A stretch of DNA of 64,000 nucleotides from contig OZ287753.1 in the NCBI GenBank assembly GCA_965649765.1, positions 19,220,001 through 19,284,000 on the forward strand, written 5' to 3'. Both the position numbers and the translations under genes were made by a program. Below are positions 1,687 to 52,500 of the stretch, piece by piece (the stretch's first letter is position 1; every line of letters begins with the position of its first letter). The stretch is from Bispira polyomma (Eukaryota). The notes under the pieces were generated by a model. It saw nothing but the letters and a program-made list of their open reading frames with translations, ran no database searches and was not told the origin of the DNA.

Positions 1687-1879
1687 ACGAATTCAGACAG
1701 CAGGGCAGGCAGTATACATGTCAAAGATACTTATGCATTTAAGCAGTATGACACCCAGTATATAATGAAATAGGGAACTTCACAAAACCTTGCAGGTGGC
1801 AATAAAAATTGACATATTATTTCGAACTTATTCCAAATTATACAATCGCCTGCAAGGTTTAAAGGAACAAATTTAGTAT

Positions 1880-4800: not shown

Positions 4801-5235
4801 ATTTCTACAACCTCCCCGTCTTATATGGCTGTTCTGCCAAGTATGGATATTGCAAAACCTGCACTGTATATCACGTGTAGCACTATTGTGTGTGTGCAAT
4901 TTTTTTCCCAAGCCACTGATGTAATTGTGGCAAATACAGAATTTTGTATTACTGGTGATGTCCCTTTCTACATAACCCACCACGTATTTTCCTGAGTTAG
5001 AGTTTTTATGTACACGTCTGTCGGCGACAATATTTACTTGTCTAGCACTTTGGTAACTGACCTCATTACCCACGTAGGCATACACAGACCTATAATTTGT
5101 TACATTATATTCACTACTGCCATGTAAATCATTACTGGCCATAAAAGTATATGCTTTATTGCAGGCATGACTGTCATAACCAATACACGTGCTTTTGCTT
5201 TCATTAGTATATACTGTACATGCAAAACTTTCCAT
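1880..5235 (-). pseudogene. pol: long N-terminal extension + reverse transcriptase + RNase H, disrupted
   Basis: ORF 2929-5235 continues in frame past a TGA at 2929-2931 (LGLI*KDKNFIDIALPFGFRTG) into ORF 2200-2835 (NYIDD, YVDAS). A frameshift near 2212 leads into ORF 1880-2212 (WCDN, HIKGESNTYADILSR). Confidence 0.9.
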
Positions 5236-5464
5236 ATCGAGTACTTTAGTATTTCGAGAACTAGTATTTAAATCTACACTCTCTACTACACTATTAATAT
5301 TTTCTAAATACGTGCTTTTCCTATTTTCAAAACTAGTAGTTAAATCTACGTCTTTTGAAATACTGTTTAAACATACTTCATCATAAACTGTTATACCAAC
5401 ATTTTCCCGTAATCTGTTACACTTTATACTTTTAGTGTTTTGAGATGTTAGGTTAATACCTTTT

Positions 5465-6451: not shown

Positions 6452-6594
6452 ATCGACAGAGGCCCAGAGAGACAAACACAGTCTAGAGTTTTGTAAAATC
6501 TCCCAAGTTAAAATCCCACGTGTTTAAACTACTCCAATCTGTCTAGTTCTCTCAGGCCACCTCGCTTCAAGTACACACGGCACAACCAGAATAC

Positions 6595-13067: not shown

Positions 13068-13584
13068 CTAAATTTCAGTAGCCTGCATGTCAAAGCCATT
13101 ATTATCATACAAACTGCCTCCAATAATCGACGGCTTTCCAGCATTGCTGATGTTTCTGTGCGAGTCGTCGCTATGACTTTTGCCGGCGTCGGCAGGGGTG
13201 CTCAGTTTGCCGTGTCGTCCAATACTGGCAAACCCATTCCTATTGCTAGCACTTCCCGCTTTACTGACACCGTTTGGCAAGGATTTACCATTTGGAGTTA
13301 AATGCGGTTTCTCCCTATTATCACTCGCACTGAGGTGATTCCCCACAAAGTCTGCACTATTGCTATCTGTATTATTTTGTTCTTTTATAGCAATGGGCTC
13401 TTCCTGTGCCTTGAGGGCAGCTCTCAGGTATTTATCGCGGTCTCTATTCCGGTTTCCTTGGCTACCGTTGTATCTATGGTACTGGTCAAACTCATCGTTA
13501 GGCATCTCCATACTCATTTCCTGTTCGTCATAGCCTTTGTCGGTATCATTAGGGGAGACAGTGTTCTCGTCCAGCGAGTTCTTA
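13068..13584 (-). CDS. Cadherin last coding exon (KNSLDENTV...MQATEI*), class I PDZ-binding end
   Basis: TAG acceptor, phase 2, in frame with ORF 13068-13517. Confidence 0.9.
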
Positions 13585-25500: not shown

Positions 25501-28500
25501 TGTATATGTCGCACTAGACACGATGATTCTAAACAATCTCTGATCTCCCCCGGGAAAACTGTGATCAGAGTTGGATCTAGGAGAATATGAATTGTCCCAG
25601 GACAAACTCTGATTCTATTTGATTGAATTTTGTACCACTTTCCAGTCTATTAGTTGTGTTCAAAACTTTTGACAGCACTTGTATCTCACCAAAATGTGTA
25701 TTTATATTAACTAATATTTCTATTTCAAAACATTGAAAGCTTGAATTAGCATTTTCATGTGTAAAGCATCTTAATTGCGATGTTAAAAACGTTTAGACCG
25801 AAAATTGAATTGGCTGGATTTTGGTACGTTAACTATAAAAATTTTGAATTAGTTTCAAATCAAATGAGACTTTTTGACAAAATTGCACCATAAGCAATGA
25901 TTATGACAGACTACCATTGTCCCAGGAGGTCCATCAGGCACCAACCACTATTATATATATCTACAATTGTAAAAAACAGCAGTCATTAGAAAGAAAAGAA
26001 GAAAGCCTATAATTCAGTATCTTGTACATGGGTATGTTTAAGTTTTATAACTGTAGTCCAAAAAACAATCCAAACAGCAATGATCTGTATAAATATCACC
26101 ACACAGTTCTGATAATCTTACTAAAAGACTTGTTTTTATATACCATTCATTATCTTTGTGCTGCTCTAGAGCAATCAATTTCTAGAAATACTTTCTCCAA
26201 ACTGTTTTTGTGTCATAAGGTATTGTAATGCTGAATTATAGGCTTATTATACCACAAATATATGTCTGAACCAGGATTTATCACCAGTTGACATATTAAA
26301 ACTCCTTATTCAGAAGACAGAAGTTTGGATCAATGGCAATTCTGCTGTATGTGAAACATGACTTTTCTGTAAGGACAAAAAGAATACATTACTTTAAATA
26401 AACACATATTACGAAGATGTCAAGGTCACTTTTATCACAGTTTGATATTCCTACACCAATATGAACACCACAGGGATAAAAGTTTATATCATTGGGCTAT
26501 AATGATTTTAAAGATACAAATTGTGCTGAGGATTAAACCAATTAAATACAGTAGAACATCTGATCTGAATATTCCAATGTATACATGTGCTCTCTTCCTC
26601 CTAAATTTTACAGATTACATATTACAGAAAAACCTCTATTTACTGAGTTTCTATTATCCGAATATTGAATTTGATGAACACCTTATTGGTCTCACTAATT
26701 CACATTTTCATGTTACTAAAAGACCTCTTTTATTTGCTAAACCTTCTACCTTTTTTATCCGAACAAAAATCTTTAGATAAAAGAGACGCTACTGAAATAT
26801 TGTTGTAAACTCCTTCTTTCAAACTATCAATATTATCCAAAACTAAATACTTCTCCCTCTTGGTGTTCAGTTAATAGAGGTTCTGCTGTGTATTATTGTT
26901 TGATTTCATAAACATTGTACTTCCAAATCTATCATTATTATTCAAACTAAATGCTTTTTTTCCCACGGTGTTCGACTGTTCATATAATGGATATTCCTCA
27001 ATCCCAGTCTATCCTAAAGTGACCTTGACATCCTCTCGTACATCACTACTGTATATTGCCCACGCTAACTCCCAGCTGACTTACTTTTTACGACATGTCC
27101 AAGCTGTCACACAGATGACCACTATTAGTACAGCTAAAACAACAGCCACAGCAATCACACCAATCAGGATAGTTTTATCTACACGGCTCTCACTAACCTC
27201 CACCACTGCAGGCTAGAAGTATGTGATATGGTAGTATAGATATATTAGTTAAACAGTCCAATTGAACATTTTTATTTTTAGAGAGAGAAAAAGTATGGCA
27301 GATTAAACATTACTCGGACTCACCTCGTCCACCGCATGGTGTAATTAGGTGACATGGTAGTATAGAAATATATAGGCAAATCATGTACTATAAACATTAT
27401 TCTCACTCCACCGTGGGCTGAAATAGTGAGCTGATATATACAGTTTCATATCTTGCAAGTGCAATATCTTCCTAAAACCAAAAATTGTTAAGCAAAAATA
27501 AAAAATTGAGGGGTTAATAATCCAGACAGATGTGACTATGGGCAGGAGAGGCATTAAGTAGGGAAGGTTGATACAAATAGAGGACTTTTAAGGTGCTTTC
27601 TGAAGTAGGTAACAATTGGACTAGATCTAGTCTTAGAGGACATTTTGTAGGGCAGGTTAATGCAAATTGGTGACTTTTATAAGGAGGTTTCTGAAGTAGG
27701 TAACAGAGGGGCTGTAATATAAGAGGGAAAAGAATTCCAAAAAGAGGCAGCATAGTAGCTTAAACCACTTGGTGAAGCATTTATAAGACTTCTTGATGCT
27801 TCTATCAAACTTTGGAACCTTGGAATAGCCTCAAAACTAGTCTTTAGATACATGTTGTCCACTTAAAATCAAATACATATGTAATACTATAAATATTTTT
27901 AGGATTACACCAATTACTTCTGACATTAAACAAAAATAGAGTGAAGTGGCCCATGGGGGCCACATCAGCCAATGACTATCTTGGATTAATTTGTTAATAC
28001 TTTTTCAACAATTAGATTAAATTTATCATTTTATAACATCCTTTGATGTGAAAAAATACTGTTACAGTGTAACATAAAAACGTAATTAGCTGATATAATA
28101 CCATGATAATTAATTCATACATACCAAAACTTCCATCACATTGTATTTCTTGAACAAATCTTCGAGGTAGATGTAGTTTTTGTCTATCAGACTAGAAATA
28201 ACAAATATTTACTTGTTTATTTGTAGTGTACACTTTAGATTTCAGACACTTTAGAAATTAATTTTTTTAATTAAGACATTAAACCTGTATGTTAAAACTT
28301 ATTTTTTTTTAACATTTCACACATACAATGTTAAGTTTTTCCAATTCATTGTTGATTCTAGGATTTTTATACTTTTACTACAGGCACTTAGTAAAACTCT
28401 GTTGACAATAACTAGGTTACTAAAAGTGTGTTGAAATTACTAGCTATAAGTGTTAGGACTCTGTTGATAATATCTGGTATTTACTGAAAGTATTTTGACA

Positions 28501-31500
28501 CCACCCGGTACCTACTAAATGACTATTGACAAACTAAAGTCTGTTGAAAATACTTTCTAAGCTCTAAGAATCTGTTGCAATATCTGCCACTTATTAAATA
28601 TCTGTTGACAGTATTCAATACTTACTTAATACCTATTGACAGAACCTGGTATTCACTCAACCTCTGTTGATAAACCTGGTACTTACTCAAAGTCTGTGGA
28701 CACAATACATGGTACTTACTCAATTAAGACATCTGCAGGTACCACTTCTCCTGTCTTGTTATCTATACCATGAATAAACATGTCTGTCCTGAAGAGACAG
28801 AAAAGAGAAATACAACAAAAGTGCACACTTACTTAATAATTGGCAGTTTCTGGATGGTTTAACTAACAATAAGGTCAATGTTGTTAATTAAGTAGCATTG
28901 CCAGCTAACAGGGTAGATTTTAAAGAAAATGCGTTTTTAGACAATAGATTTTCCTCCACATAAAAAGAAAATTTAGGTAACAGAGTTCTACTTATTAAGG
29001 TTGGACTGTATATTTCATTTTACTGTTTTTTTAAAAAAAAAGAATTTTAAATAAACATGTATACCTCCTGGCATCCGGCTGGCCATTCTCATCTTTGTGT
29101 GGTAAAATCTCATCTACATTTATAATCAGCCCTGTCACATTGGTCAGAAACTCGGCAAAATGGTCTCGAAATTCATGGACGTCATCTGGTTCTCCCCGTA
29201 TAATGACCTTCACCCTCTGGTTCTCATTGAGAAAGTAAATCTGAAACAATATACACCAAAAACAATGTATTTTTCAAACATCTGAAATTTTTCTAAAACG
29301 GTTTGCAACTTTATCTGAATATGAAATATGAAACAAATTAACAAGTGAAAGTAGGGAGTTGCATTTATTATAGAGAGGATGTTATAATTTATGGTTAAAT
29401 TAAAATCTCAAATATATCGATCACCTAAATTACTGGTCCTTACCCTGAACTCTGATATGTACTGATATCTTACATACCATTCTTGTCTACAAAGACACAT
29501 AAATTACCTAGAAATCTAAGACATATTCATAGTATATCACTTAATCTCAAATTTATACATACAATAGGTGAACTACTGAGTGCTATTGGAACAACTGGGA
29601 TGAAAAATACAATTTACACAAAAAAATAATAAGGAATTGACCTCTAGACCAGAAGCTTTTAATTTTTTTCTTAATCTCCAAATAACTTTTGAGCTTTAGT
29701 ATACTCACAGAGACATCCGCAGTGTCTTCGTGTAGTGGGTTAATGTCAGTAACCTTGACCTTAAATTCAATATGTCCATCCATGTCATTGGCAAAATACA
29801 CGTGTGTCTTCACAATACCAGTGTTTTGGTCCACCAGAAATGGATCATCTTTAAACCTGTCCCTCAGGCCAGACGTGTACACAAAACCATCCTTCGCATA
29901 GTAAGAGAGCTTGCTATTGTTTCCTATGTCTGGATCTGTGGCATACAGCTGGAAATATTGTCAAAACAAATAATTGTAAGAAAAATAGAGTTATATCTGT
30001 GGTATAAGCTTCATACACCAGAAATTTTATCCCCACAAATAACAATAAGACAGATAGAGTTGATAAATGTTTGGGTTTGTGGAATACACCTGTTAAATTG
30101 TCCCCAAAAATACCAATCAGATAAAGTTAGATAGAGTAATACAGGATTATAAAACAGAACCTGGGGTTGTATTCACAAAAGGTCTTAGTCTTAACTTCGT
30201 CATAAGCTTTAGTTTTTAGTCTTTGATTTTTGCCGAAAAAGGTTAATATTTTGGTCTTAGTCATAGTTACAGTAAGAAAGTATCTTTGCTTAGTGTTATA
30301 TTTGCTCTTAACACTAAGACTAACATTAGTCTTCAATATTTTATACATAAATGTTACGCTTAAAACTAAGTTAAGACTACGAGCTTTTGTGAATATGGCC
30401 CCAGAATTTTAGATCTATACAATGAAATGTGTAGAAGATAAAGGTTTTTTATTTTAAAATCTACCATGTTAAGTGGAAGTCCTACTTATGTAGACATTTA
30501 GAAGTATTCTTGAGACCAAGCTATGTACCAGGGGCTGTATTCACAAAGGTTCTTATTCTTGGAATTGCAGTTATTCTTAAAATTTTCTTAGAATTTTTCT
30601 TGGACTAAGAAAATTCTAAGAAAAATTCTAAGAATAACAATTTTCAAATTTGTTTTATTCCTATTCTTAGATCTTTTGAAGAAAAATTTGAATGACTATA
30701 TACTATAACAATGGTACAAAAATTGGCAACTTTGTGGGTACTAATTCTTTGAAAAATATCTAAGAATAAAAAACACTAAGACAGATTAATACTGGTGGTC
30801 CTCTGTCATTGGGTCCTATGCCCAGTGGCAAGTTAAAGAATCTTGGGGATGTTTAAAAATGGTGTCATCCACAACTGTTTCATGTTCGGGGAATAATAGT
30901 TGCTAGCTGGTGCTTAATTTTTTGCTACACTTGTAAAAGGTTAATTAACCCTTCAAATACCAGCTACAGGAAGATAAATGTGCTTACATGGATTTGTTTG
31001 AATATATAACTACTTACAGAGAGGTCAATGACCTCTGTACCAGGCTGGGTGTCCTTAGTAACCCCTGCTGTAAACCACTTCTTTAAGAACTTAGGTGGGT
31101 TGTCATTGATGTCTAATATCTCCACTTGGACTAGGAGCAGTGAGGTGTCACTCTCATTCCACGATTCGTCCATGTTTTCTTCCTTCTCCCAGTAGCCTGA
31201 AGTTATATTTATTCTAGATATAAGCTACAATCTAGTCATGCAATGTTATAAAAGAATGTATTACACTTCCCGATAATTGCAATACAAAGCATTCTTTTAT
31301 AACATTGCACAACTGTGAAAAGCTTATCTCAATTCTAACATGACTGCAGCATTAATTTTAATAATTAAAATCATATCACTACACATATTAATTTTATATG
31401 CCAATCGGAGTGCTGTATAATTATCTTAAATATAATGTCATCATGTTAGAATAAGATTTATTTTAATGTTGTTTTCAACAATTATTTGTTATATATCATG

Positions 31501-34500
31501 TTATATTACAGGTCCACACTAACAGGAATACACCCACATTATTTTGCTTTGTTACTGTCAATACCTGATGAGCAGATATTAACCTATAACCGTCAGGTGT
31601 CACTCTACATATAACACTCATGTTACACTGTTTTGTAGCAGGTTCTACTACTGTAAACCCCCATTATCCAAATATTTGAATTTAAGAACACACATTCACT
31701 CAAATTTACATTTTGGTATTGTTTTATACTGAAATGATGTACTTCCAACATGGTCAGATAATAGAGGTTATACTGTATTCACTAATTACCTGAGGAGCAG
31801 TCGTGTGTGGCTTTGACCAGTATTTCCACCTCATCTATCACCTCTCTGTCTATACTCACTCCCAGCCACAAATCCCCACTTGTCTTGTCCATGTAAAACC
31901 GAGACTTGTACACAACATCTCCACCTGAGAGCAAATACAGCAAGGAATGCAGATATTAACTCATGACCAGTCACCGTAATCACAAACATTCTTTGAATGT
32001 AACTCTTAAAAATTTTTTCAGTTTCCACCAATCATATTCTTTGACACAATATTTTCACCCAATCAAATTGTTGCAGCAATAAGTTAAAAATAAGAATATT
32101 CACAAATATTCTTAGAATGTGGTTCATAGAATTTTCTCAGTCTCAGAAAATCAGATTTACTGAAACAATATTTGTATAAATGTATAATAGCAAATAACTG
32201 AGTTATTTCATACAGCCTCACTTAATATCCTCTATAAAATAACAGATACACTTACCCACTATGTAATAACAGATCACAGAGTTATTTCATAAACTTACCC
32301 ACTATGTAATAACAGATCACTGAGTTATTTCATACACTTACCCACTATGTAAAAACAGACACTTACCCACTATGTAATAACAGATCATTGAGTTATTTCA
32401 TACACTTACCCACTATGTAATAACAGATCACTGAGTTATTTCCCACATCTGGGTCTTCAGCCAATGACAGGTTGGCCACATACACGTTACTGTGTTCTTC
32501 CAGTACACTGGTCCGGTAAGGAGGTGGATATTTCTCACGATCAAAGGCCGGTGGGTGGTCATTTTCATCCAGAGCGGTCACTGTGAAGGATGTTGTGTCA
32601 TCCATTTGTGGAGTTCCAAGGTCATAGGCTCGAACTTGGAGCTAAATTCATTGAAGATATATGTTTGACACATTCAGACAAGGAAAACAGATATTGTAGC
32701 TGTTTGAAATAAATATAACTATAAACATAATCAGTTACAGCCTATATTTTATTCCTTATTATATTTAGCAAATGCATCATATTTTTGCAACTGCAAATTT
32801 TAGATTGTAATATATCTGGAATTTCACTATATTTTCACTGTATCTTTTCCCCACATTAATACAATGTACCATTTTTCGCTCAGTTAATACACTTGCATTG
32901 CAATGGACCTGCGTTTTCCTCAGTCAATATACTCACATTCTAATACACATGTATTTCCTCAGTCAATACACTACATAGAAATACACCTGTTTTTGCCTCA
33001 GTTAAAACACTTGCATTGCAATAGACATATTTTACCTAAGTTAATATACTCACATTCTAATACACCTGTTTTTTCCTGAGTTAATATACTTACATTGTAA
33101 TGCACCTGTTTTTGCCTCAGTTAAAACACTTACATTGTAATACACCTGTTTTTGCCTCAGTTAATACACTTACATTGTAATACACCTGTTTTTTCCTCAG
33201 TTAATACAGTTAAATTGAAATAGACCTGTTTTTCCCTCAGTTAATATATTACCATTCTAATACACCTGTTTTTGCCTCAATAAATACACTCACATTCTAA
33301 TACACCTGTTTTTCCCTGAGTTAATAAACTCAGATTCTAATACACCTGTTTCTGCCTCAGTTAATACACTCACATTGTAATACACCTGTTTTTCCCTGTC
33401 TATATCTTCCGCCACTGTGATCACCCCCGTCTGTCGGTCAATACTAAAGTAGCGGTGATCACTAGAGCCTGCTATGACAAACTCAAACTCCACCACCCCA
33501 TTCAGACCAGTGTCGCCATCTGTGGCCTCCACCTGAACTACCACGTGACCTACTTCTTCATGCTGAAAATAAACATAGTAATTAGAGAATAAGTCATCTA
33601 ATATTTTTAACATACAGTAAAATCTCTATTATGCAAACATTATATGAAAGATTTTGTTGAAATATTAGTAGAAGGTTCATAATTTTTAGAGGCATTTCTA
33701 CATAAAACAATAGGAAAACATACATTTTGGGAGAGTGAAAATGAGTTGATAAAATGTAATATTTTGAGTATAGAAGTTTGGATAATAGAGAAATATATAT
33801 AATATAATATTGGAAATTTGTTTGGATAACAAGAATTCATAAAACAAGGGTATACAATGTAGTATAAAACAATATACAGGGCATATCATTTTTGAAGAGC
33901 ACAAACAGGTTTATTAAATTAAATACTAAGACAAAAACAGTTAACTTAACAAATATTGTACAGGTCTTTATTATACAGACTGTCGTAATATCCCCCCTAA
34001 CAAGGTCTAATCCTACTTTACATGTCACACCCCAAGTCTGGGTTTTCCACTTTCTCAACCAATTATTCAATCTTAGATGCCTAATGTGGCAGTCATACTG
34101 TCCAAGTTCTTCCCACGTTTATACCAGTTTACTCCTGATCATATTTATACCATTTTACTCCTGAGAACTTCACTGGTCGGGAGAGAACGGCGGGAAAATG
34201 TTCATTTGCATATATTTGCATCCCCAGTTTATGCCCCATTTAGCCCCGTTTATGCCTAGGATATGCTAAGTTTATGACAAATTTATGCCCAGACCTGACC
34301 AGATCTAAGCAGTCCATCACACGAAATGAGTTCATCAAATTGAATATTCAGGCGACATAAGCTTGGAGAATAGAGTGTTCTATATTATGTATACCTCTTT
34401 GACAGTGATGACATCGCTGTCCGTCGGGTAGGTAATCAGTGGTGGGTGATCATTGACGTCTTCTATAAACACATACACTGTGGTGGTATTGTAGAGTGGA

Positions 34501-37500
34501 GGCTGGCCCTGATCTGTGGCTCTCACTACAATGTAGTACCAACCAATGTTCCCCTTGAGTGGACTTTTAATGAACACCTGGCCACTGATTGGATGAATAT
34601 CAAACAGGTCCGTGCCATTCCCAGGCGCCAGATCAATACTGTAGACAATCTCTGCATTCAAACCTTCGTCTTGGTCAGAGGCACTCACTGGAAGTAGATA
34701 ATTGAAAGTACTAGCTGATTTATCTTCAATTAGGCCAATATTTATCAAAAAGCATTGATTTTAATAAGGCTTACAGTGGGAAACTTCAATAGGTAGTCAG
34801 ATTTAATTTATACATGTATTTACGTGGTACACAAAGATACAGTTGTGAGTTAAGATTTAAAAAATTTGATTCACACCGACCCTGCAGCCATACATACATA
34901 CATGTACATGTTGATTAAAGGAGTGTAACAGTGCTGGATGTCCATTTAGTTGATCGCAAAATTATTTTGGAATAAAATTTTATTTCGAATATGTGACATA
35001 AAACAGCAGATACATGTACATGACTTTTTTGTGTAAACCTCCATGTCCATTATTATGAAACCCTCAGTTAGTTGAGTTATACATCAATTACAACCCTTAA
35101 TTCGTCACATGATAATTGCTATACTTGACACATACTGTATAACAATCCATATATTTAAAGCTCTATTGTTAAAAATATGCAATATTTTGCACTCCGTTTC
35201 ACTGACTACATTTTAATTGAATAATTGATCATCATAAATTAATTATATTTAAGGCACATATAATTGCATACCTTTGATCACTGGATCATTGACATCCATA
35301 TTCTCTTTAATTTCTGCCTGGTAGGATGGTTCTTCAAACTGAGGTGCGTTGTCATTTACATCCCTCAGGTGCACGCGCATATTTCGGGTGTTTATCCTTT
35401 GCTCGTTCTCTGGGGCATAGTTGTTGTCTCTGGCATCAATGAAGAGGTTGTAGATGGCAATCTGCTCTCTGTCTAAAGCATCTGTAGTTGTCATCTCACC
35501 CTGAGGGAAAAGACGCATGTTACATACCAGCATATTAACCAATACAACAGCATGAGGCCTTCAAAACTATGGCAGAATAAATGGTTCTTGTACAGAGTTT
35601 TGAATTATAAGTCATTCCTTAAGTCCTATTGCAGTTGTTGTGTTAGGAGGGATAGGCCTGCTCTCACTTCAGCCAGGGTGGTTTTTATGTGGAGGTTGTC
35701 AACTCGGTCACAATTGTAGGAGGAGTTAAATATTAGCTATTTTGGCCAATATTTAACTTATACAATATAGGAATAGCTGCAGAATTAAATCTATGTTTAA
35801 GAAGTGAGAAATCTCCCTACATTGATTCTAGAAACAGGTATTTCTAGTTGTCCCTCGGTTTTTGATTGTTGACTAGTGAGATACATGACCCTTGTTACCG
35901 GTGGTTGTCTATTGTAAAAAATTAATGACATATTGCTTCTCAGTAGTCCCTTTATTTTCTGTGTCAAAGTTTAAAGAATGATTTTAAGTGTAAAGAAAAT
36001 TGTATAGTCTCAACCATTTTAAGTGGCTGAATATATTGTTTCAACCAATCTACTTGGCTGAGACTAAGAAAATTGTAAGAATCTTATTCTAAAACTGTTT
36101 ATAAAGTTTATTAATCAAAGCCATTCAGATTCTCCGAAAGAATATTTTCAGCCAATCAAATTACTTGATGTTTGTAAATATCAAGGCTACCTCAGTTGTT
36201 AAAACAAGAGCCTTACTGTTTGGTTGTCCATATGGAAGTGGTTGTAATGTCCCTGAGTGACGAAGTACATAACACGACCAAACTCCCCACTGTCTCTGTC
36301 TGTGGCATACACGCTGGTCACACTGGTACCTAAAGATGATGACATATTTGGCATGCAAATACGCTATTGAAAACTATCAATAGCTCCTGTATAAATACCA
36401 TATAGAGTGGAATCTGTACCAGTGACCACTCTCAAAGAGACCATTCGTAAATGTTTGATAAGCAAATACTCTGTTAAATACTATATATAATAAACATTTT
36501 TTATCAAAGCCTCTGACTTTCTATAATTCTCTGTACAGGTGGAAAACGGCAAAAGGATTTTACAATATTATCACGTTGTAACCTGTGAATATATTTTAAA
36601 CAGCAATTTTTAAATAACAATAAAATCAACCCCAAAGCTACAGTGGCCTTGAGATTGTACTCTTGGACAAGGTACTTTACATTGCCCCTCTAAACCCAGG
36701 TGTATAAATGGGTACCTGCGCCGTATTTAGCAGCATGGTTAGTATGCTCCCTGAGGGAGCCGAGAGTGAACCAATTGGTTGACAAGTGGAAGAACCCAGG
36801 CTGGGGTGTAAACTGAGAAGTCGATAATACCTCATTGGGGTCATATCAGACGATCAACCTACATTTTTAAGCAATAGAAAACATGTTGGTAGACATGTGG
36901 TATATGCCCCTACCTATAGTATCATTCTCCCAGATGTACACATTCTCCTCAAACACTTGCCATTCTGGACTGTTGTCATTGACATCAATCACCTGTATGG
37001 TAACAATCGCTGTTGATGACAATACTGGTTCCCCTCCGTCTATTGCCATGACAGTGATATTAATCAGCTGGTAATCCTCATGATCCACAGACTCGCGTAG
37101 TGTCACGATGCCTGTTTTCTGGGTGATGTTGAAAAATTCACTCTCTGGCTTGTCTTCAATAAGATAGTATCTGAAATATATAAATAGTATTATTATTGTT
37201 TAACATAGAAATAAATATACAACAGTATTTTCTAGTTATGGCCAACTTCTACTTTTACATAATTAAAACTAGTATTTTTTACTGTGAATTAATTTAAGCT
37301 ATTTTTGCTAATGAGCTTGAATCGTTGTACAAATTAACTTGCAAGCGAAAAATTGAAGTTGTTCCATAATGTTTTTGAGTTTAAAAAGGCCAGTAGTGAA
37401 AATATATTGAAAAGGTGACCTTCATTTCCAGCAAAAATGCTAACAACTCAAATATATTATGGTTTATGGTTAAATGTACAGCTTACAGCTTGCATCAACT

Positions 37501-40500: not shown

Positions 40501-43500
40501 TACACACTGCCACTGTATTATATGTCCCAAAATATATATCAAAACGACATGTAAAATATTTAAATTATCATATAATTAAAATAGATGTCATTCTTTAATA
40601 TTTCTACTCATAAAAATGTAAATATGTTTTTCATAAATTGAGTTTAAGACAACAAAATAAAAGTTGTGCAGTTTCAGAGAAGCTTCAGCACACATAACGT
40701 GATTATCGGCGATCGCTTTATGTGTTTACGTTACTAAACCCTTAAGGCTGTATATGACAGTCTATGATGCTCAGCTATGGTTGTAAATATATTAGTCAAT
40801 ACATACATAAATTATACAGTATAACCTCTGTTATCCAAACTTTTGTCATCTGAATATCCAGTTTTATTACCACAATTACGGTCTCTCAAACTTACATATA
40901 TCCCAAAATACCTCTTCTATTTTGTAAACCACATACATTATCTAAACCACATCTTATTCCCAGTACATACTTCATACTTCTATTTGTAGACCCTTTGTCT
41001 TTTTTTTGTCATCAGATAGTGGTGGTGCACTAAACCATTAGTGTTGGTATACTGACCAGTTAGAGTTTGTATACTGATCTCTCAGTGGTGGTGTTCCTCT
41101 ATCTATGGCCAGTAATTTCAGTGTATACTGATCAGTTAGCTTTTGTATACTGACTAGTTAGTGTTTTTGTACTCACCAGTTAGCGTTTGTATACTGACCA
41201 GTCAGTGGTGGTATACTGACCCGTTAGAGTTTGTATACTGATCTGTTAGTGGCGGTGTTCCTCTATCTATGGCCAGTATTTTCAGTGTATACTGACCAGT
41301 TAGTGGTGGTGTACACTGACCAGTTAGTGGTGGTGTACTGACCAGTTAGTGTTTGTATACTGACCAGTTAGTGTTTGTATACTGACCAGTTAGTGCTATA
41401 ATGACCAGTTAGTGTTTGTATACTGATTAGTTACTGACCAGTTAGTGTTTCTATACTGACCAGATAGTGTTTGTATACTGACCAGTTTGTGTTTGTATAC
41501 TGACCAGTCAGTGTTTGTATACTGACCAGTTAGTGTTTGTATACTGACCAGTTATTGGTGTACTGACTAGTTAGTGTTTGTGTACTCACCCGTTAGTGGT
41601 GGTGTTCCTCTATCTATAGCCAGTATTTTCAGTGTATACTCTGTAGCGTAGACGTCTCTATCCAGATTTGCCCCACTCTCCACTGTAATGCTTCCTGTCT
41701 GAGCGTTTATACGGAACTTGTCCAGACCTCCACTGTCCAGTCGGTAGATGACCTCATTGTTAGGGGCTGTGATGTCATCGTCATTAGCGTGGACAGTTTC
41801 TACTTGGAAGCCTGGGGATAGATTATATTAAAAGAGGAACTGTATCTGATATTCGTCATCCCTACAATTTAAGCTAAATCAATTAAAACTGGGCGAAAAA
41901 TAACTGGAATTTAGGTAAGGCAAAATAGTCATAAAAATCTCAATTTCAGGAAATATTACCCACAATTGTCCAAAAAAACATTTTCTAGGTGGAAAATTTT
42001 AGAATTTTGGACTCCTTACTCTAGAATACACACAAGACAATATCATTATGTGATACAATATTAATTTATTTTACACAAACATGCTTATTTGAAAAAATAA
42101 ACAGCATTTTCTGGTTGTCAAATAAATATTAAAATTATACATGTAGCTAAAGAAATGTTATTTCATCCTGTTTTATTCAGTTGGTCTAGTCAAAATAACC
42201 CTTTTGCCACCAATGGAGAGTAATTTTACTAAACCAAGGGAGAAAACTTTGACCCACTTCCATGACGTCACAGATGATGTTTTTGCTACTACTTATTACC
42301 AGTACCTCACAAATGAAAACATATCTTTAATTTTATGTTAAAAGCACCATACCACATAGATTGTATTCAGTGTTACAGGTGCATAGCCACCATTAACGCC
42401 AGTACGCCCACTAATTAAATTTCTGGGGAGTATAAAATGAAAAATCCTGGCTACTCCCCTGAGTTAATACTACATTTTTCAATCTCTGGTCTCCTTAACA
42501 AAATATCTACATACGATGCCATCATACAATTAAATTTTTTTTCAATATTTCCAATTTTTAGGGGTTAAATCTCGTTTTTTTTTGTTTATTGTTAACCAAA
42601 TGATTTGTTGTCGGAACTTATTTTTCATTTCCTTTTGCAAGTAATATATAGTAGAAACACTTACCGCCGGCACTATTTTCTAAGATGGCCGTCTCATAGA
42701 AGTGTTCGTCAAAGTAGGGCGCCTCGTCATTCTCATCCTGGACATTGATGGTTACCAAGACGGTGGAGTTGAGTGGAAACGTACCCATGTCCTCTGCCAT
42801 CACAGTCAGTACAAACATGCCAGTCATGCTAGGATCCATGGCTTCATAATCCAAAGGGCCGTTAAGTTTGATCTCACCGGATTCCGAGTCGATGGTAAAG
42901 TTTGACAGGGGATCACCTCGGATCACAAAGAAATGGATCTTGTCGTTGGGTGGGAGGTCTCTATCTGTGGCCTGTGGGGGGAGGAGAGATATTTCATATT
43001 TTATTAAGGAATAAATCTGTTTGTGTATATTCAGCATGACCCTATAAATTAATTATTTAGCTATATCCAATATTCTTTCTTTTTTTGTTTATTTTTTTGT
43101 TGTTCTCATTCAGATGGACTTATATTTTTTTACATAATATATAATAAACATTAATAAATAAATTAATAAGTAAATATTAAAAAACGTTTTTCAAGTACAG
43201 TAGAACCTTTATTATCTGAACATGTTAAAATAGCAAAAATATTCTGTTTTAAATAACAGAAGGTTCGTAAAATAGAAGTGGCAATTTGATGTAAAAAGAT
43301 AGGAAAATCGAATGTTTAAAGTACAGTAGAATCTTTATTATCCAAACATGTTGGAAGAACAATTTTTTCTTTGGAAAATAGAAGGTTCATCAAATAGAAG
43401 CGCCGATTTATTATTAAAACAATAGGAAAATGCAAATTTAGGAGATTGAAACTGTGATCGTAAAATTGGGCCAAATTGATGACAATGGCTTATCAAGGCC

Positions 43501-46500
43501 CTTATTCTAGGAAGGATAGAATGTATACTCTACAATTATACAAATAGCTATCATCAAAGAAATTGTCCATTATTTTGCTGATTTTAGTCCTTGTTTAGCA
43601 GAGATGCTGGCTATAGTTATAGTCACAGACAAACATTAAATTAACGACTTTGAATACCGCCCAAAGATAGATAAAGGTGCTGGGTATTAAATTTTGAATA
43701 CCAATACACACTATACCCACCTCTATGACCAGAGATCGCTCCAACTGCCCTTCGTTTTCCCTCACATAACCCTCGTATTCCGACCTCAGTATCTCCGGAG
43801 CATTGTCGTTCTCATCAGTTAGGCTGATTTCAAACACGACGGAGGTCCTCAGTCCTCCCCCATCCACAGCTTCAAAGGTCAGGTAGTGCGTGTCTTGTGT
43901 CTCTCGGTCTAACAGACTGTGGTCCTTGTCCGCAGCCACATCTACGTACACCATGCCATCGAACACCGTGACACGGAATAGGGAAAAACTGGCACCTTTT
44001 AATTGGTACTTCAAGGTGCCGAATACTCCTGTGTCTTTATCTGTGGCCTATGATAGTAGAATAGTAGATGGTGCGTTTAGTTTGTACACCTATGGCGCTT
44101 TATTCACAAAAGGTCTTATTCTTAACTTAGTCCTAAACTTAACATTTATATCTAAAGTCTGACATATTAAAGACTACCTACTCTTAGACTAGGTGTTAAA
44201 AGCAAAGTTAACACTAACCAAAGATATTTCTTGCTGTAACAGGGAATAAGACCCAAATCTTCAACTTAAGACAAAGTTAAAACTTTTTGTGAATACGGCC
44301 CCTAGGTTTGTTATACAGAACCTAAAAACTTCTTATCTCAGTTGAATAATAATCATACCTCAAATCCGACTGTGTATTTGAATCCAGTGCTAAAAGCTGA
44401 ATTCAAAGGAATGGTGGAATGTATAGGCTATTCCAACAAAACCTTCATTTGAGTATGAGTTTGATACTAGAATAATAGATATTACATAGACGTTTAATTT
44501 GTATATCAGTGTGATCGTATTCACAAAAGTGTCTTAGTGTCTTCACTTAGTCTTAAGCTTTAAACATTTATGTCTAAAATATTTGAGATTACATATTGTT
44601 AGTTTTGGTGTTAAGAGCAAAGTGAACACTGACCGAAAGATACCAAGTTCAGAGAATGAAAATGAGTTTAATAAAATCAACAATTTGGATAATAGAAGTT
44701 TGGATGATAGAGGTTTTAGTGTATTTTTTTTATAAACAACGGCTGTCTCAGGTGCTGGTCATACAATATACTAAGCGACAAAACTGTATCAAACTCTCTA
44801 ATAAATCTCCTGCATATGTCTGTACTTACTGTTATGTTGGTAATGTAGGTGTCTTTAGGTGAGTTTTCCCTCACTGATGCGTTGTATTTCTCTTGGTCAA
44901 ACTCGGGCCAGTTGTCATTCACATCCTCTAAGTAGATGATCACCCGTGTACAGTTGTGTCGTCTTTCAGATGTTAAATGCTCTCTGGCCACAACCTTCAA
45001 AGTGTGAAGAAGTTAAGTGTGACTCTCATTTAATAGTCTTGAGAATGGCCAAGTCAGAAATATATGTAGAACCTCTATTATCTGAAGATGTTGGGAGAGC
45101 AAGATTATGTTGTTTACATAAAAGAAGGTTCATAAACTAGAAGAGACATTTTACCGTATGTATAAAACAATAGGAAAACAGAAATTAGGGCAAGTGGATA
45201 TTGAATATTCATTCAATTGTTTAAGGCTTTAGTAACGTAAACACATAAATGCCCTGCCGAAATATTATGCTTCTTTTACGTATATTAATTCTAGTAGATA
45301 TACCCCATATATTGGCCTTAAAATGGTTGTTTAGTGCCAGTATTAACCAATTTTATATGCAAATACAATTTAAAACTTCATTATTTTGTTGAAAAGTGAT
45401 TAAAAGAGCCATATAATGATTCTGGTATTGTGACGTCACACAATTTGAAATCTGTGTACGAGCGTCATATTTGTAAACAAATCTCGAAGACAAGCCTTTC
45501 TATTGTGACACAATACGAGTATTGATTCAACACATATACAGACATTATATATGCTAAACAACTTTAGATAACATGTATATTATTTCTTATGATTTACATT
45601 TTTCAATATGTTTCCTTATTTTATAAAAACGAAGAATACAAACATCTTTCTGTTTAGAAGAGTCTAACTTTAATGTTTTTTCTATAATTGTCCCCGTTTT
45701 TGTGGTTTTATTAAAACGAATTCATTCAAAATAATGCTGAGGTTTAGCTTTTTCTAGTCATGCCCAATACTTCAGTATTGATTCTTTCTTGGTATGTGAA
45801 TTGTGTCACGTTTGTGAAGCATGTACTTTGAAAATATTACACATTTTAGTTACCATTTACACACTGCTATATATGCATTGTATGTCTGAAAATACTTATG
45901 AAAATGACACGTAAAATATATGAATTAGTATATAATTAAAATATATGGCATTGTTTATTATTTTTACAAATGAAAAATGTAAATAAGTCATCAATAAATC
46001 GAATTTATGGGGACAAAAAAAAAGTGTGCAGTTTCTGAGAAGCTCCAACAGACATAATGTGGTTTTCGGCGATCGTTTTATACGTTTACGTTACTAAAGC
46101 CTTAATGCATGTTATCTCTAGAAATAGAGTGAAAACGTATAACATTAGAAGTTAAACTTACATCAAAGTTGAACTGTGTAACTTTCTCGTAATCCAGTGC
46201 CTCCGACTCATTGACTCTGAGTACAAGGTTGGCTTCATTCAGAACACTGGAAGGGAACACTTCAAATACGTAAAACGGCTCGCCATTTTGTTCTAGGCTC
46301 AGTTCAAACTTTCCATTGTCACCCTAAACACACACACAATAAAAACATCAGCTTCACCAACCAGGATTTACATTTAAACAGACTGAAATGTAACAGAACC
46401 CCTTTTATTATACTGAGCATTTAAAAAAGCCATATTGATATATCATCGTCAGGCTGATTTTCCAAAAATGATAGTCCTACAACATGGCCTTGGTCATCAT

Positions 46501-49500
46501 CAGTAGACAATGGCATGTTCATAGATTGCCTTAGGATGTTATTGATTTTCTGTTTTAAATATTATGTAAAATTGACACTATAAAAATGTCGGAAATTCCC
46601 GTAACGACTTATTTTTTAATACATTATCATATGTGTCGTGTGATAGGAAAAAATTTATATAACAGTCCATATATCATTGTAGTAGAGTGGGATATATGTA
46701 GTGTAGTAGTGTGTAATAAATAGAGAGAGTGTCACATGCCTTGTCTAAGTCTATGACAGTCATCTCTGTTGTTTCAGGAAGGAATGTGACAGGAATCCTC
46801 TTCTGCGTGTTTTCCATCACAATACCAGTGTACTCCGTCTTAGAGAAGCTGGGTGTCTGGTCGTTAACGTCTTTAATGCGGATCATCACAAGTGCAGTGG
46901 CTGTTGTGGGGCCCTGGGGGGTCGGAGTGTCTTCTTGTGTCTGGTAGAGATGAATAAAGGCAATACAAGGGAAAGCTCTGTTATCTGAACTTCTGTTATT
47001 CAAATAGACGATTTTATTAACTCAGTATCATCCTAATAAATTAACATTTTCGTATTCGTTTGTACTAAAATACTCTACTAAAAAATAGATAAAATACTAT
47101 AAGCCTCTAATATTCACATATCAGATGTGTTCCTATACTTTAGCAATATGATCATTTCTTTACAGAAGTCTATAAAATATACTGTAAGCTACAAAAGTTG
47201 AAAACCATACAGTGGTGGCTAGGCATCCTTAATACTTAAAGATATGCTTTTTGATATTTTAACAATAGATTCTATTGGATTTCAGATAGTTGACTGTTTT
47301 AATGGTTCTTCCTTGCTCATATTGCAATCAACTATACCTTAGTCCTACAAAAGTTCACCATGTTATGTATGAGCTAAAAGGCCAAGGTCTAATTCATGGC
47401 TCAGATAAACACAGCAACCATATCCTAAAAGTATTGATTTTTCTCACTGATCTCACTATGCGCACATGAAGAGTATTCTCTTCACATCTACAATGTACAC
47501 ATATTCGCTTGAACAGTGCAATTATCTAAGTTTATTACAAGGTATAAAACTGTCATTCTTTACAAGGGATTTTATGTACCAGTATTCCGATGTTTAGCAC
47601 TCCAAAGAGCTCCAGGACTTGAGGATCTTCCCTATCCAGTGACTGACTCACAGAGATCACACCAGTTGAGGCATTGATGTGGAAGAACTGATGAAGACCT
47701 GATTCAGAACAAGGAAACACATGGAACCCCTAGGGTGGTATTCACAAGACGACTAAGCCCAGACTTTGTCTCAGATATAGTACACTTTTGTACTACTGGT
47801 AGTTTTAGGAAAATGTCTAGACACCTGGGTTCATCATATTTACTTAATTACTGTATTTATCTCAATGAACGCTGCCTTCCCAATAAACACCTCCCCCGCC
47901 CCTCAATTTACAAAATGTCAACTGCTGTTGAAATGATGTTGATCCTAAAACCTTCAATGTATCAGAATAGAGGATTATTATTAATAAAGTAACTTATATT
48001 ATTAAATATTATTATATTATATTTACTGTAAAATCAACTTTAATTATCACCAACTGGATTCACCCTCCAATATTTGGTGTCTAATAGTGGCCCACTTTTA
48101 GAAAAATACATTTTCCTGGGGCAGGCGGTGGATTGGTGGCAGTATGCAGTCCATAAGGATAAATCTGGTATGGAAATGGAGATGTCTAAGTTCGTAGTAC
48201 ATATTGGACTTCCTCGCTGAAAGCTCTATTAAAATGAATGTGAGGTGTTACCTGATGTAAAGGTGTAGTTGACAGGGTTGGGCACTCCCCGGTCACCATC
48301 CATAGCTGACACTTGTAACACAGAGGTACCCTGGGTAAAAAAGTGACAACAAACGTTATAGAAGTGTTTGTGAAATGTTCATTACAGTTACCAGTGTGGT
48401 ATATACCTGATCATCACTTGTATGGGATAATAATAGTGAAACTTTCTATTATCTAAGCAGCTTAGGAGAGTGTCAATTTAATTGGATTATTGAATGTTCA
48501 AATGAATTCATCAGTTCAAGACTAAAATAATTTAACAACAAAATAAATTAATAAATTTAATATATTCAGATAATAGAAGTTCGCTTAATAAGGTGCACTG
48601 TGGCTTTGTATATTTTTGTGCTATAGTATTTTACAACTGACTTAGTTTTAAGAGAGACCATGAAAAAGACAAAAATATTCAATAGGTCCACCATATACTA
48701 CCTTGATAATCTACTATCATGCAAAGGAAACAAACTTATACAATTTCTTTTTTTCACGTTACTTTAATGGCCTTCCATGGTACCTCTTGTATGAAAGTAA
48801 TTCAATAACACTGTTATATGTATTCCTAGGTCTCTCATTCACTCACCACTGTCGCATTTTCATACACATCTGCCATGTAGGGAAGGTTCTGGAAGAATGG
48901 GGCTGTGTCCTGGACATCCACAATGTTGATTAGTAGATCTGTGGTGCTGTTCAGGTAACCACCATCCTAAAAGTCAAAACACAACTTCAGAATGCCTCTT
49001 TTTGTATTGTATTGTAATATGGGTTTCCAACATTCCAGGGGAGTATCTACGATTTTTCATTTGGTACTCCCAAATTTATCCAAATATCATGTTTGTTTTG
49101 GTGCTAGCATAAATTTGATTCATAGGGGGGGGGGGGGGGGGGGGAAGGGGCACTCATTCTGACATTAACTTTTTTTTTTATTCTATTTACTTTAGTGCTA
49201 CCATAAATTTGTGGGGAGGAGGGGGGGTCAATCGGTCATTATATTTTTTTTTATTAGGTTTTTTTTGTTTGTATTTTATAATTTTTTCTGTCATTAAATT
49301 CGTATGCCTAGGCGTACTGGCTTCTACACAAGCTAACTAGCTACACCCCTGCATTCATTATTGATGCTAGATATCTTCAAAAGCGCCACATCAAAATTGA
49401 TAAGACATGCCATAGTCAAAAAAACAAATTGCTAGATCATAAGGATGAACTTCATAAAAAAATTACACAACAATAGTCTAACAAAGAAATGTACTCATTA

Positions 49501-52500
49501 TAGTACAGGTCAACCTTTATTGTCTAAACATGTTGGGAGAGCGAGCTATTGTTTGGGTAATAGAAGGTTATAAAATAGTGGAGGCATTTTAGTACAAAGT
49601 AATAGGAAAGCATAAATTTAAGAGGGTGAAAATTAGTTCATAAAATAGAATATTAGGATAAGAAACGTTTAAATGATAGAGGTTCTACTGTATATGTAAA
49701 ACTTACACAAAATAAAATGTTTTTTACACAGCAGGAAATCTATTTAACAGGGTATATTTAAATTTTAGTAAATTTTTACTGGTTCTGGTTGGCTGCACAC
49801 TTACAGTCAGTCAGGGGAATGACAGTTACTGGTGCTGGTTGATTGGACATGTACAGAGTCAGGGGAATGACAGTTACTGGTGCTGGTTGACTGTACATGT
49901 ACAGAGTCAGGGGAATGACAGTTACTGGTGCTAGTTGGCTGCACATGTACAGTCAGTCAGGAAAATGACAGTTACTGGTGCTGGTTGGCTGCACATGTAC
50001 AGTCAGTGAGGGGAATGACAGTTACTGGTGCTAGTTGGCTGCACATGTACAGTCAGTCAGAGGAATGACAGTTACTGGTGCTAGTTGGCTGCACATGTAC
50101 AGTCAGTCAGAGGAATGACAGTTACTGGTGCTGGTTGGCTGCACATGTACAGTCAGTCAGGAGAATGACAGTTACTGGTGCTAGTTGGCTGCACATGTAC
50201 AGTCAGTCAGGAGAATAACAGTTACTGGTGCTGGTTGGCTGCACATGTACAGTCAGTGAGGGGAATGACAGTTACTGGTGCTGGTTTGCTGCACATGTAC
50301 AGTCAGTGAGGGGAATGACAGTTACTGGTGCTGGTTGACTGGACATGTACAGTCAGTGAGGGGAATGACAGTTACTGGTGCTGGTTGACTGGACATGTAC
50401 AGTCAGTGAGGGGAATGGCAGTTACTGGTGCTGGTTGACTGTACATGTACAGAGTCAGGGGAATGACAGTTACTGGTGCTAGTTGGCTGTACATGTACAG
50501 TCAGTCAGGGGAATGACAGTTACTGGTGCTGGTTGGCTGCACATGTACAGTCAGTCAGGGAAATGACAGTTAGTGGTGCTAGTTGGCTGCACATGTACAG
50601 TCAGTCAGGAGAATGACAGTTACTGGTACTAGTTGGCTGCACATGTACAGTCAGTGAGGGAATGACAGTTACTGGTGCTAGTTGGCTGCAGATGTACAGT
50701 CAGTCAGGAGAATGACAGTTACTGGTGCTAGTTGGCCGCACATGTACAGTCAATGAGGGGAATGACAGTTACTGGTGCTAGTTGGCTGCACATGTACAGT
50801 CAGTCAAGAGAATGACAGTTACTGGTGCTGGTTGGCTGCAGATGTACAGTCAGTCAGGAGAATAACAGTTACTGGTGCTGGTTGGCTGCACATGTACAGT
50901 CAGTCAGGGGAATGACAGTTAGTGGTGCTGGTTGGCTGCACATGTACAGTCAGTGAGGGGAATGACAGTTACTGGTGCTAGTTGGCTGCACATGTACAGT
51001 CAGTCAGGAGAATGACAGTTACTGGTGCTGGTTGGCTGCAGATGTACAGTCAGTCAGGAGAATAACAGTTACTGGTGCTGGTTGGCTGCACATGTACAGT
51101 CAGTCAGGGGAATGACAGTTAGTGGTGCTGGTTGGCTGCACATGTACAGTCAGTGAGGGGAATGACAGTTACTGGTGCTGGTTGACTGGACATGTACAGT
51201 CAGTCAGGGGAATGACAGTTACTGGTGCTGGTTGGCTGTACTTGTCACTTGACGATTTAGTTAGGGGAATAACATTAACTGGTGCAGGTTCATTGCAGTC
51301 AAAAAACTGAAGAAGTGAACAAAAATGAGATACCAAATAATACCGAAAGATATCAAACGCCTCTTGATAAAGGGGCACACTGACTTAACATTCAAGGGAC
51401 ATGTTTATGTTTGTTACATATGCATTCACTATATATATGTATTTTTAGTGGCCTTTTATCAGGATGAAATCTACACACTACAGGATGGTAACTGTTAAAT
51501 TGGTGTGTAACAAAAGTAGTTCAGTATGATCAAAGTGCCACCTAGTGAATGCCAATTGCATCATTTTGACAGATGGTTGAAACATGTCCACTGAGCCTTA
51601 ACAACATATGTTCCTAACTGACTCTGGCTCTATATACTTACAATGGCTGTGATTTCCAGCTGATAGAATTTCTCCTTCTCATAATCCACGGTATTTTTCA
51701 GTATGACATCACCGTCCAGTTGGTCTATCACAAACAGGCCTTGGGGTGTCTGAAATATCAAACAACTTGTATACAACAGACATTGTGGTGTCTGAAATAA
51801 GGAGAAATATGTATAGGATCATTAAAAACAGTCAAAATCCTTTAAGTGGAACTCTGTTAAGTCGATTTCTCTTTGATGTGTAGAATATGTTGCAGTCAGA
51901 CAAAAACCTATTATAAACTACCCTGTTGAGTGGAAATCCTGCTAAAGTAGAGACATTTCAACTGGTCTCTTGAGATTCGACTTAAAAGGGTTTAACTGTG
52001 CATGTAATACAGTATAACAAGACAAGGTGGCCATACGTTGTCTCAGGGACCTGTGTACCTTGACAGTACAAAAGGCTTCAGTTAAGCAATACAGTATAAC
52101 ACGACAAGGTGGCCAGATGTTGTCAGGGACCTGTGTACCTTGACAGTACAAAAGGCTTAAGTCAAGTAATACAGTATAACATGACAAGGTGGCTAGATGT
52201 TGTCAGTGACCTGGGTACCTTGAAGGTACAAAAGGCTCAAGTCAAGTAATACAGTATAACACGACAAGGTGGCTAGATGTTGTCAGTGACCTGTGTACCT
52301 TGACAGTACAAAAGACTCAAGTCAAGTAATACAGTATAACACGACAAGGTGGCCAGATGTTGTCAGGGATCTGTGTACCTTGAAGGTACAAAAGGCTTAA
52401 GTCAAGTAATACAGTATAACATGACAAGGTGGCTAGATGTTGTCAGTGACCTGTGTACCTTGACGGTACAAAAGGCTTAAGTAAATAAGTAAGTCATAGA

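What the first reader, a model, noticed from the sequence alone, without database searches (positions are those of the whole stretch)
27190..51800. Tandem duplications repeatedly seeded at splice junctions (eight exons)
Seen: repeats whose unit spans an exon-intron boundary and extends into the intron. Donors: 28720, 32410, 33374, 41590. Acceptors: 27212, 29948, 38367, 51749. The units are unrelated (22-120 bp) and range from near-identical to heavily decayed. Only two large intronic arrays are not junction-linked. Inference: a recurrent mutational process or retention bias at splice junctions that keeps creating decoy splice sites and raw material for new exons.
Basis: partly seen in the sequence, partly recalled or inferred. 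Interest (0 to 1): 0.7.

Follow-up and report, generated by a model that had tools for sequence, protein, structure and literature searches.

The report
Mirage minisatellites at cadherin exon edges
In an invertebrate cadherin gene, eight of 60 predicted exon edges have been copied head-to-tail into the neighbouring intron, as at about one in seven splice junctions sampled elsewhere in this genome; this is a known repeat type ("mirage"), the spare copies diverge like unselected DNA, and similar repeats over stop codons suggest that coding-sequence edges, not splice signals alone, likely attract them.

Summary
Confirmed, real and known in kind. The window holds a minus-strand cadherin-23-like gene (30 modelled exons, 1691 aa, no stops, colinear with lophotrochozoan relatives). 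An anchored self-alignment scores exactly the eight named junctions (8 of 60; shuffled introns 0 of 900). Elsewhere in the genome 73 of 508 kinesin, myosin, dynein and AMP-ligase junctions (14%) carry such copies. 48 of 104 locus-specific arrays span a junction, against 8.3 expected (20.1 under a conservative null); GC matching does not remove the excess. These are 'mirages' (lancelet; chicken 'exon stuttering'; human F7 VNTR). This scan noted them before: 104 notes in at least 19 genomes, this one included. What this report adds: exon-derived copies mismatch at codon position 2 at half the intron rate and at position 3 at the intron rate, so the decoys are neutral, neither new exons nor purged. 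Stop codons of single-coding-exon genes carry the same arrays (8 of 148 strict, background 1.7%; 6 of 146 after removing two possible donors), so a splice site is not required, though donors are hit more often (38 of 260). The two large non-junction arrays derive from dispersed repeats. No RNA was available.

The parts
23326..61579 (-). Cadherin-23-like gene, 30 modelled exons (GT/GC-AG); the cytoplasmic tail probably ends in the ORF at 13068-13676, with exons in between not modelled
   Evidence: 1691 aa without a stop; 36-40% identity over about 1700 aa to Lineus, Liolophura and Lingula cadherin-23-like proteins, with no exon-sized gap against these three; PF00028; no RNA
27187..27399 (-). 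Acceptor 27212 with one decayed copy 126 bp upstream (about 26 nt exon + 61 nt intron aligned, 77% identical, AG lost)
28388..28724 (-). Donor 28720 with a decayed array of about 31 bp (6 scored copies); only about 4 nt of exon in the unit
29934..30135 (-). Acceptor 29948 with two decayed copies at 70 and 141 bp; AG kept in one
32246..32447 (-). Donor 32410 with a young 43/25-bp (68-bp higher-order) array; four intact G|GTAAGT decoys
   Evidence: TRF 94-97%
32872..33397 (-). Donor 33374 with 40 bp x 13.2 array (24 nt exon part); GT kept in 6 of 11 scored copies
   Evidence: spanned by run contigs without differences
38305..38530 (-). Acceptor 38367 with a 120-bp duplication (63 nt exon part, 91% identical); the upstream decoy AG is in frame and stop-free (would add 40 aa)
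   Evidence: (ORF 38072-38620)
41034..41640 (-). Donor 41590 with a compound array: 22-bp subunits plus two longer copies of the exon end at 347 and 511 bp
51733..51815 (-). Acceptor 51749 with a 42-bp two-copy duplication, decoy AG intact
49776..51245 (.). Purely intronic 50 bp x 29.5 array; its unit matches dispersed copies on many chromosomes (a locally amplified fragment of an interspersed repeat)
   Evidence: 62 matches, 48 of them outside the window, most of them single units of 39-54 nt at 88-98%
52004..52482 (.). Purely intronic 80 bp x 6 array between two small inverted-repeat elements; its unit also matches dispersed copies
   Evidence: 14 of 18 matches outside the window, 79-88%

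Best explanation
These are 'mirage' minisatellites: short stretches covering a predicted exon edge have been duplicated head-to-tail into the adjoining intron, likely because tandem duplication and later expansion are raised in and beside coding sequence, and selection likely keeps only events whose spare copies fall outside the exon. Steps: (1) local duplication of a 20-300 bp unit with one end in the exon (shown as a product; break repair or slippage as the cause is inferred). (2) Expansion by unequal exchange into 3-40 copies, sometimes with nested sub-units (arrays shown, process inferred). (3) The spliceosome uses the site nearest the exon, so the protein is unchanged (inferred from protein colinearity and the F7 and lancelet data; not seen in RNA here). 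(4) The spare copies decay neutrally (shown statistically). The attracting feature is probably the edge of conserved coding sequence, with splice junctions the most frequent case, and longer survival of exon-anchored arrays likely adds to the excess.
For: 73 of 508 junctions from four gene families carry an intron-side copy and 6 of 508 an exon-side one; 47 of 406 in a separate set of ab initio exons. The first-unit frequency peaks at the junction (donors 16%, acceptors 12%) and falls to 2.5-4% at 100-300 nt into the intron. Event test: 48 of 104 locus-specific arrays against 8.3 expected; 39 of 59 with 3 or more copies against 5.0; 9 of 45 with fewer than 3 copies against 3.3; 48 of 147 against 14.6 with repeat-family arrays included; conservative null 20.1, z 7.4. 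GC-matched expectation 3.2-6.3 against 45. With flat scoring 52 of 508 against 3.6%. Neutrality: mismatch 0.104/0.079/0.178 at codon positions 1/2/3 against 0.161 on the intron side; position 2 over intron 0.49 (95% interval 0.35-0.66), as expected if only one of two copies is constrained. Stop codons: 10 of 148 loose and 8 of 148 strict against local 2.2% and 1.7% (p 0.0015, 0.005), with clear arrays at L177, L191, L239, L250, L276, L308. The exon share of the unit is spread from 0.2 to 0.9. Silent decoys downstream of a donor: F7 IVS7 (PMC1557585, abstract) and lancelet RT-PCR (PMC3087553, passages).
Against: Stops are hit less often than donors (8 of 148 against 38 of 260 strict, p 0.005), and only 6 of 146 remain (p 0.043) once two loci with a nearby donor motif are removed, so a splice-specific contribution is open. 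Single-coding-exon genes also have a lower background (1.7% against 3.3%). Start codons gave 2 of 105, but start calls are unreliable. Enrichment is weaker in the most identical arrays (4 of 18 against 1.1) and in two-copy events, which retention alone would partly predict. Junctions outside the window are predicted (53 of 58 correct on the window, partly trained on it). No molecular trigger was tested, and the microhomology test was inconclusive.
Confidence: 0.62

Rival explanations
1. Retention only: duplications arise evenly, but arrays anchored in or beside an exon are shielded from the deletions that turn over the rest of the intron, so they last longer and have time to expand.
For: The odds ratio rises from about 3 (fewer than 3 copies) to 21 (3 or more) and from 4.5 (95% identical or more) to 10-13 (older). 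Non-spanning arrays crowd exon edges (12 of 54 within 50 nt, 5.3 expected). Stop codons would be shielded too.
Against: Two-copy and most-identical classes are still enriched (p 0.003 and 0.016). There is no excess at 100-300 nt from donors. Junction and intronic arrays have similar median identity (88 and 90%).
Confidence: 0.2
2. Splicing-coupled origin: spliceosome assembly or RNA-DNA hybrids at splice sites cause breaks or stalls that are repaired as local duplications, so the splice site is the seed.
For: Donors (14.6%) and acceptors (10.9%) exceed stops (5.4%) under the same strict rule; the profile peaks at the junction.
Against: Arrays of the same anatomy span stop codons where no splice site is predicted. 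Fold enrichment over local background is similar (about 3 at stops, 4.5 at donors). Breakpoints do not sit at the junction, as an RNA-templated copy would.
Confidence: 0.12
3. The arrays are functional: decoy sites tune splicing or supply alternative exons and are kept by selection.
For: Most decoy GT/AG are intact. The 38367 decoy is in frame and stop-free. Human cases of intron formation from boundary repeats exist (PMC2812944, passages).
Against: Codon-position divergence is neutral. GT/AG identity (0.91-0.95) is about what a single neutral copy gives, and my detection favours intact sites. Only 2 of 66 non-window arrays have an in-frame, stop-free, intact nearest decoy. Units are unrelated and of all ages.
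Confidence: 0.04
4. Chance overlap, GC effect or assembly error.
For: Junction windows are GC-richer (0.41 against 0.335); among intronic arrays copy number rises with GC (rho 0.45).
Against: GC-matched and regression tests leave a rate ratio of 6.6-13; shuffles 0 of 900; short-read contigs reproduce three of the arrays.
Confidence: 0.02

Closest known systems
Lancelet 'mirage' minisatellites (Adh3, globins BflGb6 and BflGb9, troponin C, PGBD5); PMC3087553 and PMC3902484, passages read
   Same: Locus-specific tandem copies of an exon-intron boundary at either the 5' or the 3' site, units of tens to about 160 bp, 81-100% identity, many but not all with AG/GT, regular splicing apparently unaffected.
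   Different: Described there gene by gene; here measured over 508 junctions with nulls, in a 1.03-Gb genome whose cadherin is closest to lophotrochozoan ones. Allelic length instability was shown in lancelet and could not be tested here.
Chicken 'exon stuttering' (bioRxiv 10.1101/2025.09.16.676548; 12 of 21 passages read)
   Same: Partial exon copies at the exon border (median 36 bp there, 31 nt here), median 4 copies, strictly local.
   Different: There 190 of 5572 dot-chromosome introns (3.4%), tied to GC-rich dot chromosomes. Here about 14% of junctions, spread over the chromosomes, in an AT-rich genome, with no trend to chromosome ends and not explained by GC.
Human F7 IVS7 37-bp VNTR (PMC1557585, abstract and outline) and boundary repeats in human segmental duplications (PMC2812944, passages)
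   Same: The first unit spans the donor; downstream pseudo-sites are functional but silent, and the most upstream donor is chosen.
   Different: Isolated human loci; some boundary repeats there have transcript support for new introns, for which no evidence was found here.

Membership tests
Mirage minisatellite (as described in PMC3087553) | Tandem repeat whose unit spans an exon-intron boundary | tested here: met
   8 of 60 junctions; 28720 is marginal (about 4 nt of exon); boundaries come from a homology-supported model, not RNA
Mirage minisatellite | Extra copies lie in the intron; occurs at both donors and acceptors | tested here: met
   4 donors and 4 acceptors in the window; 42 of 260 donors and 31 of 248 acceptors elsewhere, exon direction 6 of 508
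Mirage minisatellite | Unit is locus-specific, not a dispersed repeat | tested here: met
   Units derive from their own exon; 40 of 48 junction arrays had no hit in the other fetched 10-kb loci or the window. The eight window units were not searched genome-wide.
Mirage minisatellite | Many but not all copies keep AG/GT | tested here: met
   287 of 354 donor and 101 of 115 acceptor copies intact
Mirage minisatellite | Regular splicing is unaffected | not testable with these tools
   No RNA run listed; indirect support from protein colinearity and neutral divergence
Mirage minisatellite | Length instability between alleles | tested here: inconclusive
   Only contigs of one study, at most two samples; no second allele visible
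Intron gain by tandem genomic duplication | A new intron whose two splice sites both come from copies of one AG|GT-bearing unit | tested here: inconclusive
   1 of 149 arrays spanned a whole predicted intron, and that intron rests on a predicted exon end inside the array (L160); no orthologous genomes for intron positions

The most novel reading that the evidence does not exclude
A genome-wide mutational process targets the edges of conserved coding sequence regardless of splicing, for example recombinational repair slipping where similarity between alleles ends. It has put tandem copies on about one splice junction in seven and one stop codon in 15-25. 'Mirages' and 'exon stuttering' would then be the splice-site face of a general coding-edge duplication hotspot and a steady source of intron growth (21 of 281 kb of sampled intron here).
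Probability: 0.35. Interest if true: 0.58.

Novelty: new member of a known kind. Interest (0 to 1): 0.3.

Why it matters
The repeat type is known and this scan has seen it many times, so the locus itself is ordinary for this genome. The value lies in the numbers and controls: a genome-level rate, a GC-matched null, a codon-position test showing that decoys are neutral, and a stop-codon control hinting that splicing is not the trigger. The published accounts I read call the mechanism unclear. A genome where thousands of exons are predicted to sit beside intact rival splice sites is also a natural test set for how the spliceosome picks the nearest site, and a hazard for gene annotation.

Tried and rejected
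RNA evidence: no RNA holder listed. The three runs behave as DNA contigs and showed no splice joints or alleles. Kinase loci were mostly long single ORFs or a repeated family and were not used. Subtelomeric bias: none (83 gene clusters, rho -0.02, p 0.86); no clustering by gene (p 0.17). Purging of decoys: not seen. Microhomology from fractional copy number: junction arrays 2 of 24 with a 0-12 nt residue against 5.3 expected, intronic 11 of 18 against 5.2; confounded by copy number and end trimming, so no conclusion. Unit length modulo 3: in-frame units looked scarce (19/37/18; 7/23/16), but modal spacing in the first set was not significant (20/32/22, p 0.19), 3 of 6 reverse-scoring junctions have periods divisible by 3, and 14 of 45 excluded predicted junctions were in frame, so my exon caller may cause it; unresolved. 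Hidden exons under the two large intronic arrays: rejected, no gap in the protein alignments there. Literature: searches found no genome-wide null test for an invertebrate and no stop-codon control (one search returned 0 papers; the scan look-up returned 0). The library lacks most subscription papers, the original Adh3 paper was seen only as cited, and bioRxiv supplements are closed, so the chicken screen's tables were not seen. PMC12783039 (passages) did not describe boundary repeats. PMC8355091 was seen only as a listing.
Full report
Context. The window is G000:C6:19220001-19284000 of a 1.035-Gb genome with 14 large contigs. It holds a minus-strand cadherin gene. I modelled 30 exons from 61579 to 23326, which join to 1691 aa without a stop. 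The best of 120 fetched proteins are cadherin-23-like proteins of Lineus (40%), Liolophura (38%) and Lingula (36%), with no exon-sized gap against these three. The organism is therefore probably a lophotrochozoan; I did not identify it. Exons are 46% GC and introns 33%. No RNA run was listed, so all junctions are inferred.

Observation. For each junction I aligned the 60 nt on each side against every position 12-450 nt away, forcing the alignment through the junction. At 25 bits, 8 of 60 junctions score in the intron direction, exactly the eight named, and 1 of 60 in the exon direction. Intronic controls are terminal units in 45 and 49 of 1368 positions; shuffled introns give 0 of 900. Anatomy is: 32410 has four perfect decoy donors, 33374 a 13-copy 40-mer, 41590 nested 22-bp and longer units, 38367 a 120-bp two-copy duplication, while 27212, 28720, 29948 and 51749 are small or decayed. 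Contigs of three DNA runs match 27462-30188 and 32413-33620 letter for letter (one study, possibly the assembly's own sample). The two large non-junction arrays are built from units that match dispersed sequences on many chromosomes, so they are amplified bits of interspersed repeats.

Genome-wide test. I took exon matches of four Pfam families (316 rows, of which 261 were used; I left out rows outside fetched loci, near-identical duplicate loci and matches with many stops). Boundaries were called with splice and codon models (53 of 58 correct on the window, partly trained on it), and 508 of 522 possible junctions passed site-score and flank filters. 73 of 508 (31 of 248 acceptors, 42 of 260 donors) carry an intron-side copy and 6 of 508 an exon-side one; kinesin 26 of 219, myosin 16 of 98, dynein 31 of 167, AMP-ligase 0 of 24. 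A separate set of ab initio exons gave 47 of 406. The signal peaks within 20 nt of the junction and drops to 2.5-4% at 100-300 nt; further out it is 3-10%, where unannotated exons and repeat-borne satellites contribute. In an event test on 251 introns (281 kb), TRF gave 149 arrays: 48 junction-spanning, 56 intronic, 43 belonging to dispersed families, 2 exonic. Expected junction-spanning was 8.3 of 104, or 14.6 of 147 with family arrays, or 20.1 if the unit is taken as half the array. A stricter TRF-only classing gave 35 of 136 against 14.7. GC matching expects 3.2-6.3 against 45 observed for units of 25 bp or more. Flat scoring gives 52 of 508 against 642 of 17696. 43 of 83 gene clusters have at least one, with no trend along chromosomes.

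What the copies do. Between the real exon edge and its nearest copy, mismatches are 63 of 606, 49 of 620 and 111 of 623 at codon positions 1, 2 and 3, and 483 of 2996 on the intron side. Position 3 equals the intron rate and position 2 is half of it, the pattern for one constrained and one free copy. Decoy GT/AG are neither purged nor clearly conserved (detection favours intact sites). In every scored case the modelled site is the copy nearest the exon, which fits the F7 result that the most upstream donor is used (PMC1557585, abstract). For acceptors the same rule is my inference from exon definition (recalled). One decoy in the window, 38487, would add 40 aa in frame.

Is the splice site the seed? 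I tested 150 GPCR and P450 loci whose domain match runs to the family's end in one open frame (2 dropped). 10 of 148 stops carry a downstream copy, 8 under a strict rule, against 57 and 46 of 2644 positions 140-500 nt downstream. L177, L191, L239, L250, L276 and L308 are plain multi-copy arrays of C-terminal codons, stop and 3' flank. L279 and L282 have a donor motif close by; without them 6 of 146 remain (p 0.043). Donors under the strict rule are 38 of 260 against 138 of 4207 background. So a splice site is not necessary and the fold excess is comparable (about 2.4-3 against 4.5), but the absolute rate at stops is lower (p 0.005). These stops are not RNA-confirmed. Non-spanning arrays also lie near exons more than expected, and the exon share of the unit is spread widely. 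Together this favours a coding-edge zone filtered by selection over a splice-site trigger, with retention adding to it, because older and larger arrays are the most enriched.

Comparison. The anatomy meets the tested features of lancelet 'mirages' (PMC3087553 and PMC3902484, passages). It also matches chicken 'exon stuttering' (bioRxiv 10.1101/2025.09.16.676548, passages), which is rarer and tied to GC-rich dot chromosomes. I recalled the term 'mirage' and confirmed it before opening the scan's notes. Those notes list 104 similar findings in at least 19 genomes and several in this genome, and gave me the chicken lead.

Verdict. Real, strongly non-random, genome-wide, neutral in bulk, and a new member of a known kind. 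The stop-codon result is the one fresh lead and is moderate in strength. Interest 0.30.

Noticed in passing
window 646-6523 (- strand): ORFs that read like gag (5465-6523), reverse transcriptase (2200-2928; RVT_1 E 1.7e-4, below cut-off) and a recombinase-like ORF (646-1692; no Pfam hit). Probably a tyrosine-recombinase retrotransposon, as other notes on this genome describe; the recombinase label is from recall and those notes.
   Followed up: partly
window 46740: The reading frame requires a GC donor (AAG|GCATGT), so this is a predicted GC-AG intron; the nearest GT 4 nt further on breaks the frame.
   Followed up: partly
L151:6933-7193, L166:4952-5253 (positions on the gene strand): In-frame arrays (39 and 75 bp) inside long open frames at dynein exon edges; my caller placed the splice site within the array. 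Candidates for real in-frame decoy use, or caller errors.
   Followed up: no
L084, L088, L089, L108, L119, L152, L158, L161, L164: A dispersed element carrying internal satellites of 140-170, 41 and 16 bp recurs in many introns and accounts for most large non-junction arrays.
   Followed up: partly
window-wide, e.g. 38110-38148, 43200-43420, 52502-52563: A very abundant small inverted-repeat element (16 near-matches of a 20-nt motif in the window; very high contig depth), often close to exon ends.
   Followed up: no
G000 C5-C9 against C1-C4 and C10-C14: Junction copies are rarer on mid-sized chromosomes (14 of 175) than on large (40 of 237) or small ones (19 of 96); unexplained, grouping made after the fact.
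   Followed up: no
junction arrays genome-wide: Unit lengths of 3n+1 are over-represented and 3n under-represented in two sets; possibly a bias of my exon caller.
   Followed up: partly
L016-L040 and C4:97.6-99.1 Mb: A multi-copy intronless kinase family (411-418 aa frames on many chromosomes) and a tandem cluster of about 15 kinase genes.
   Followed up: no
window 26800-26980 and 27540-27700: Decayed intronic duplications (periods about 100 and 89) not linked to a junction.
   Followed up: partly
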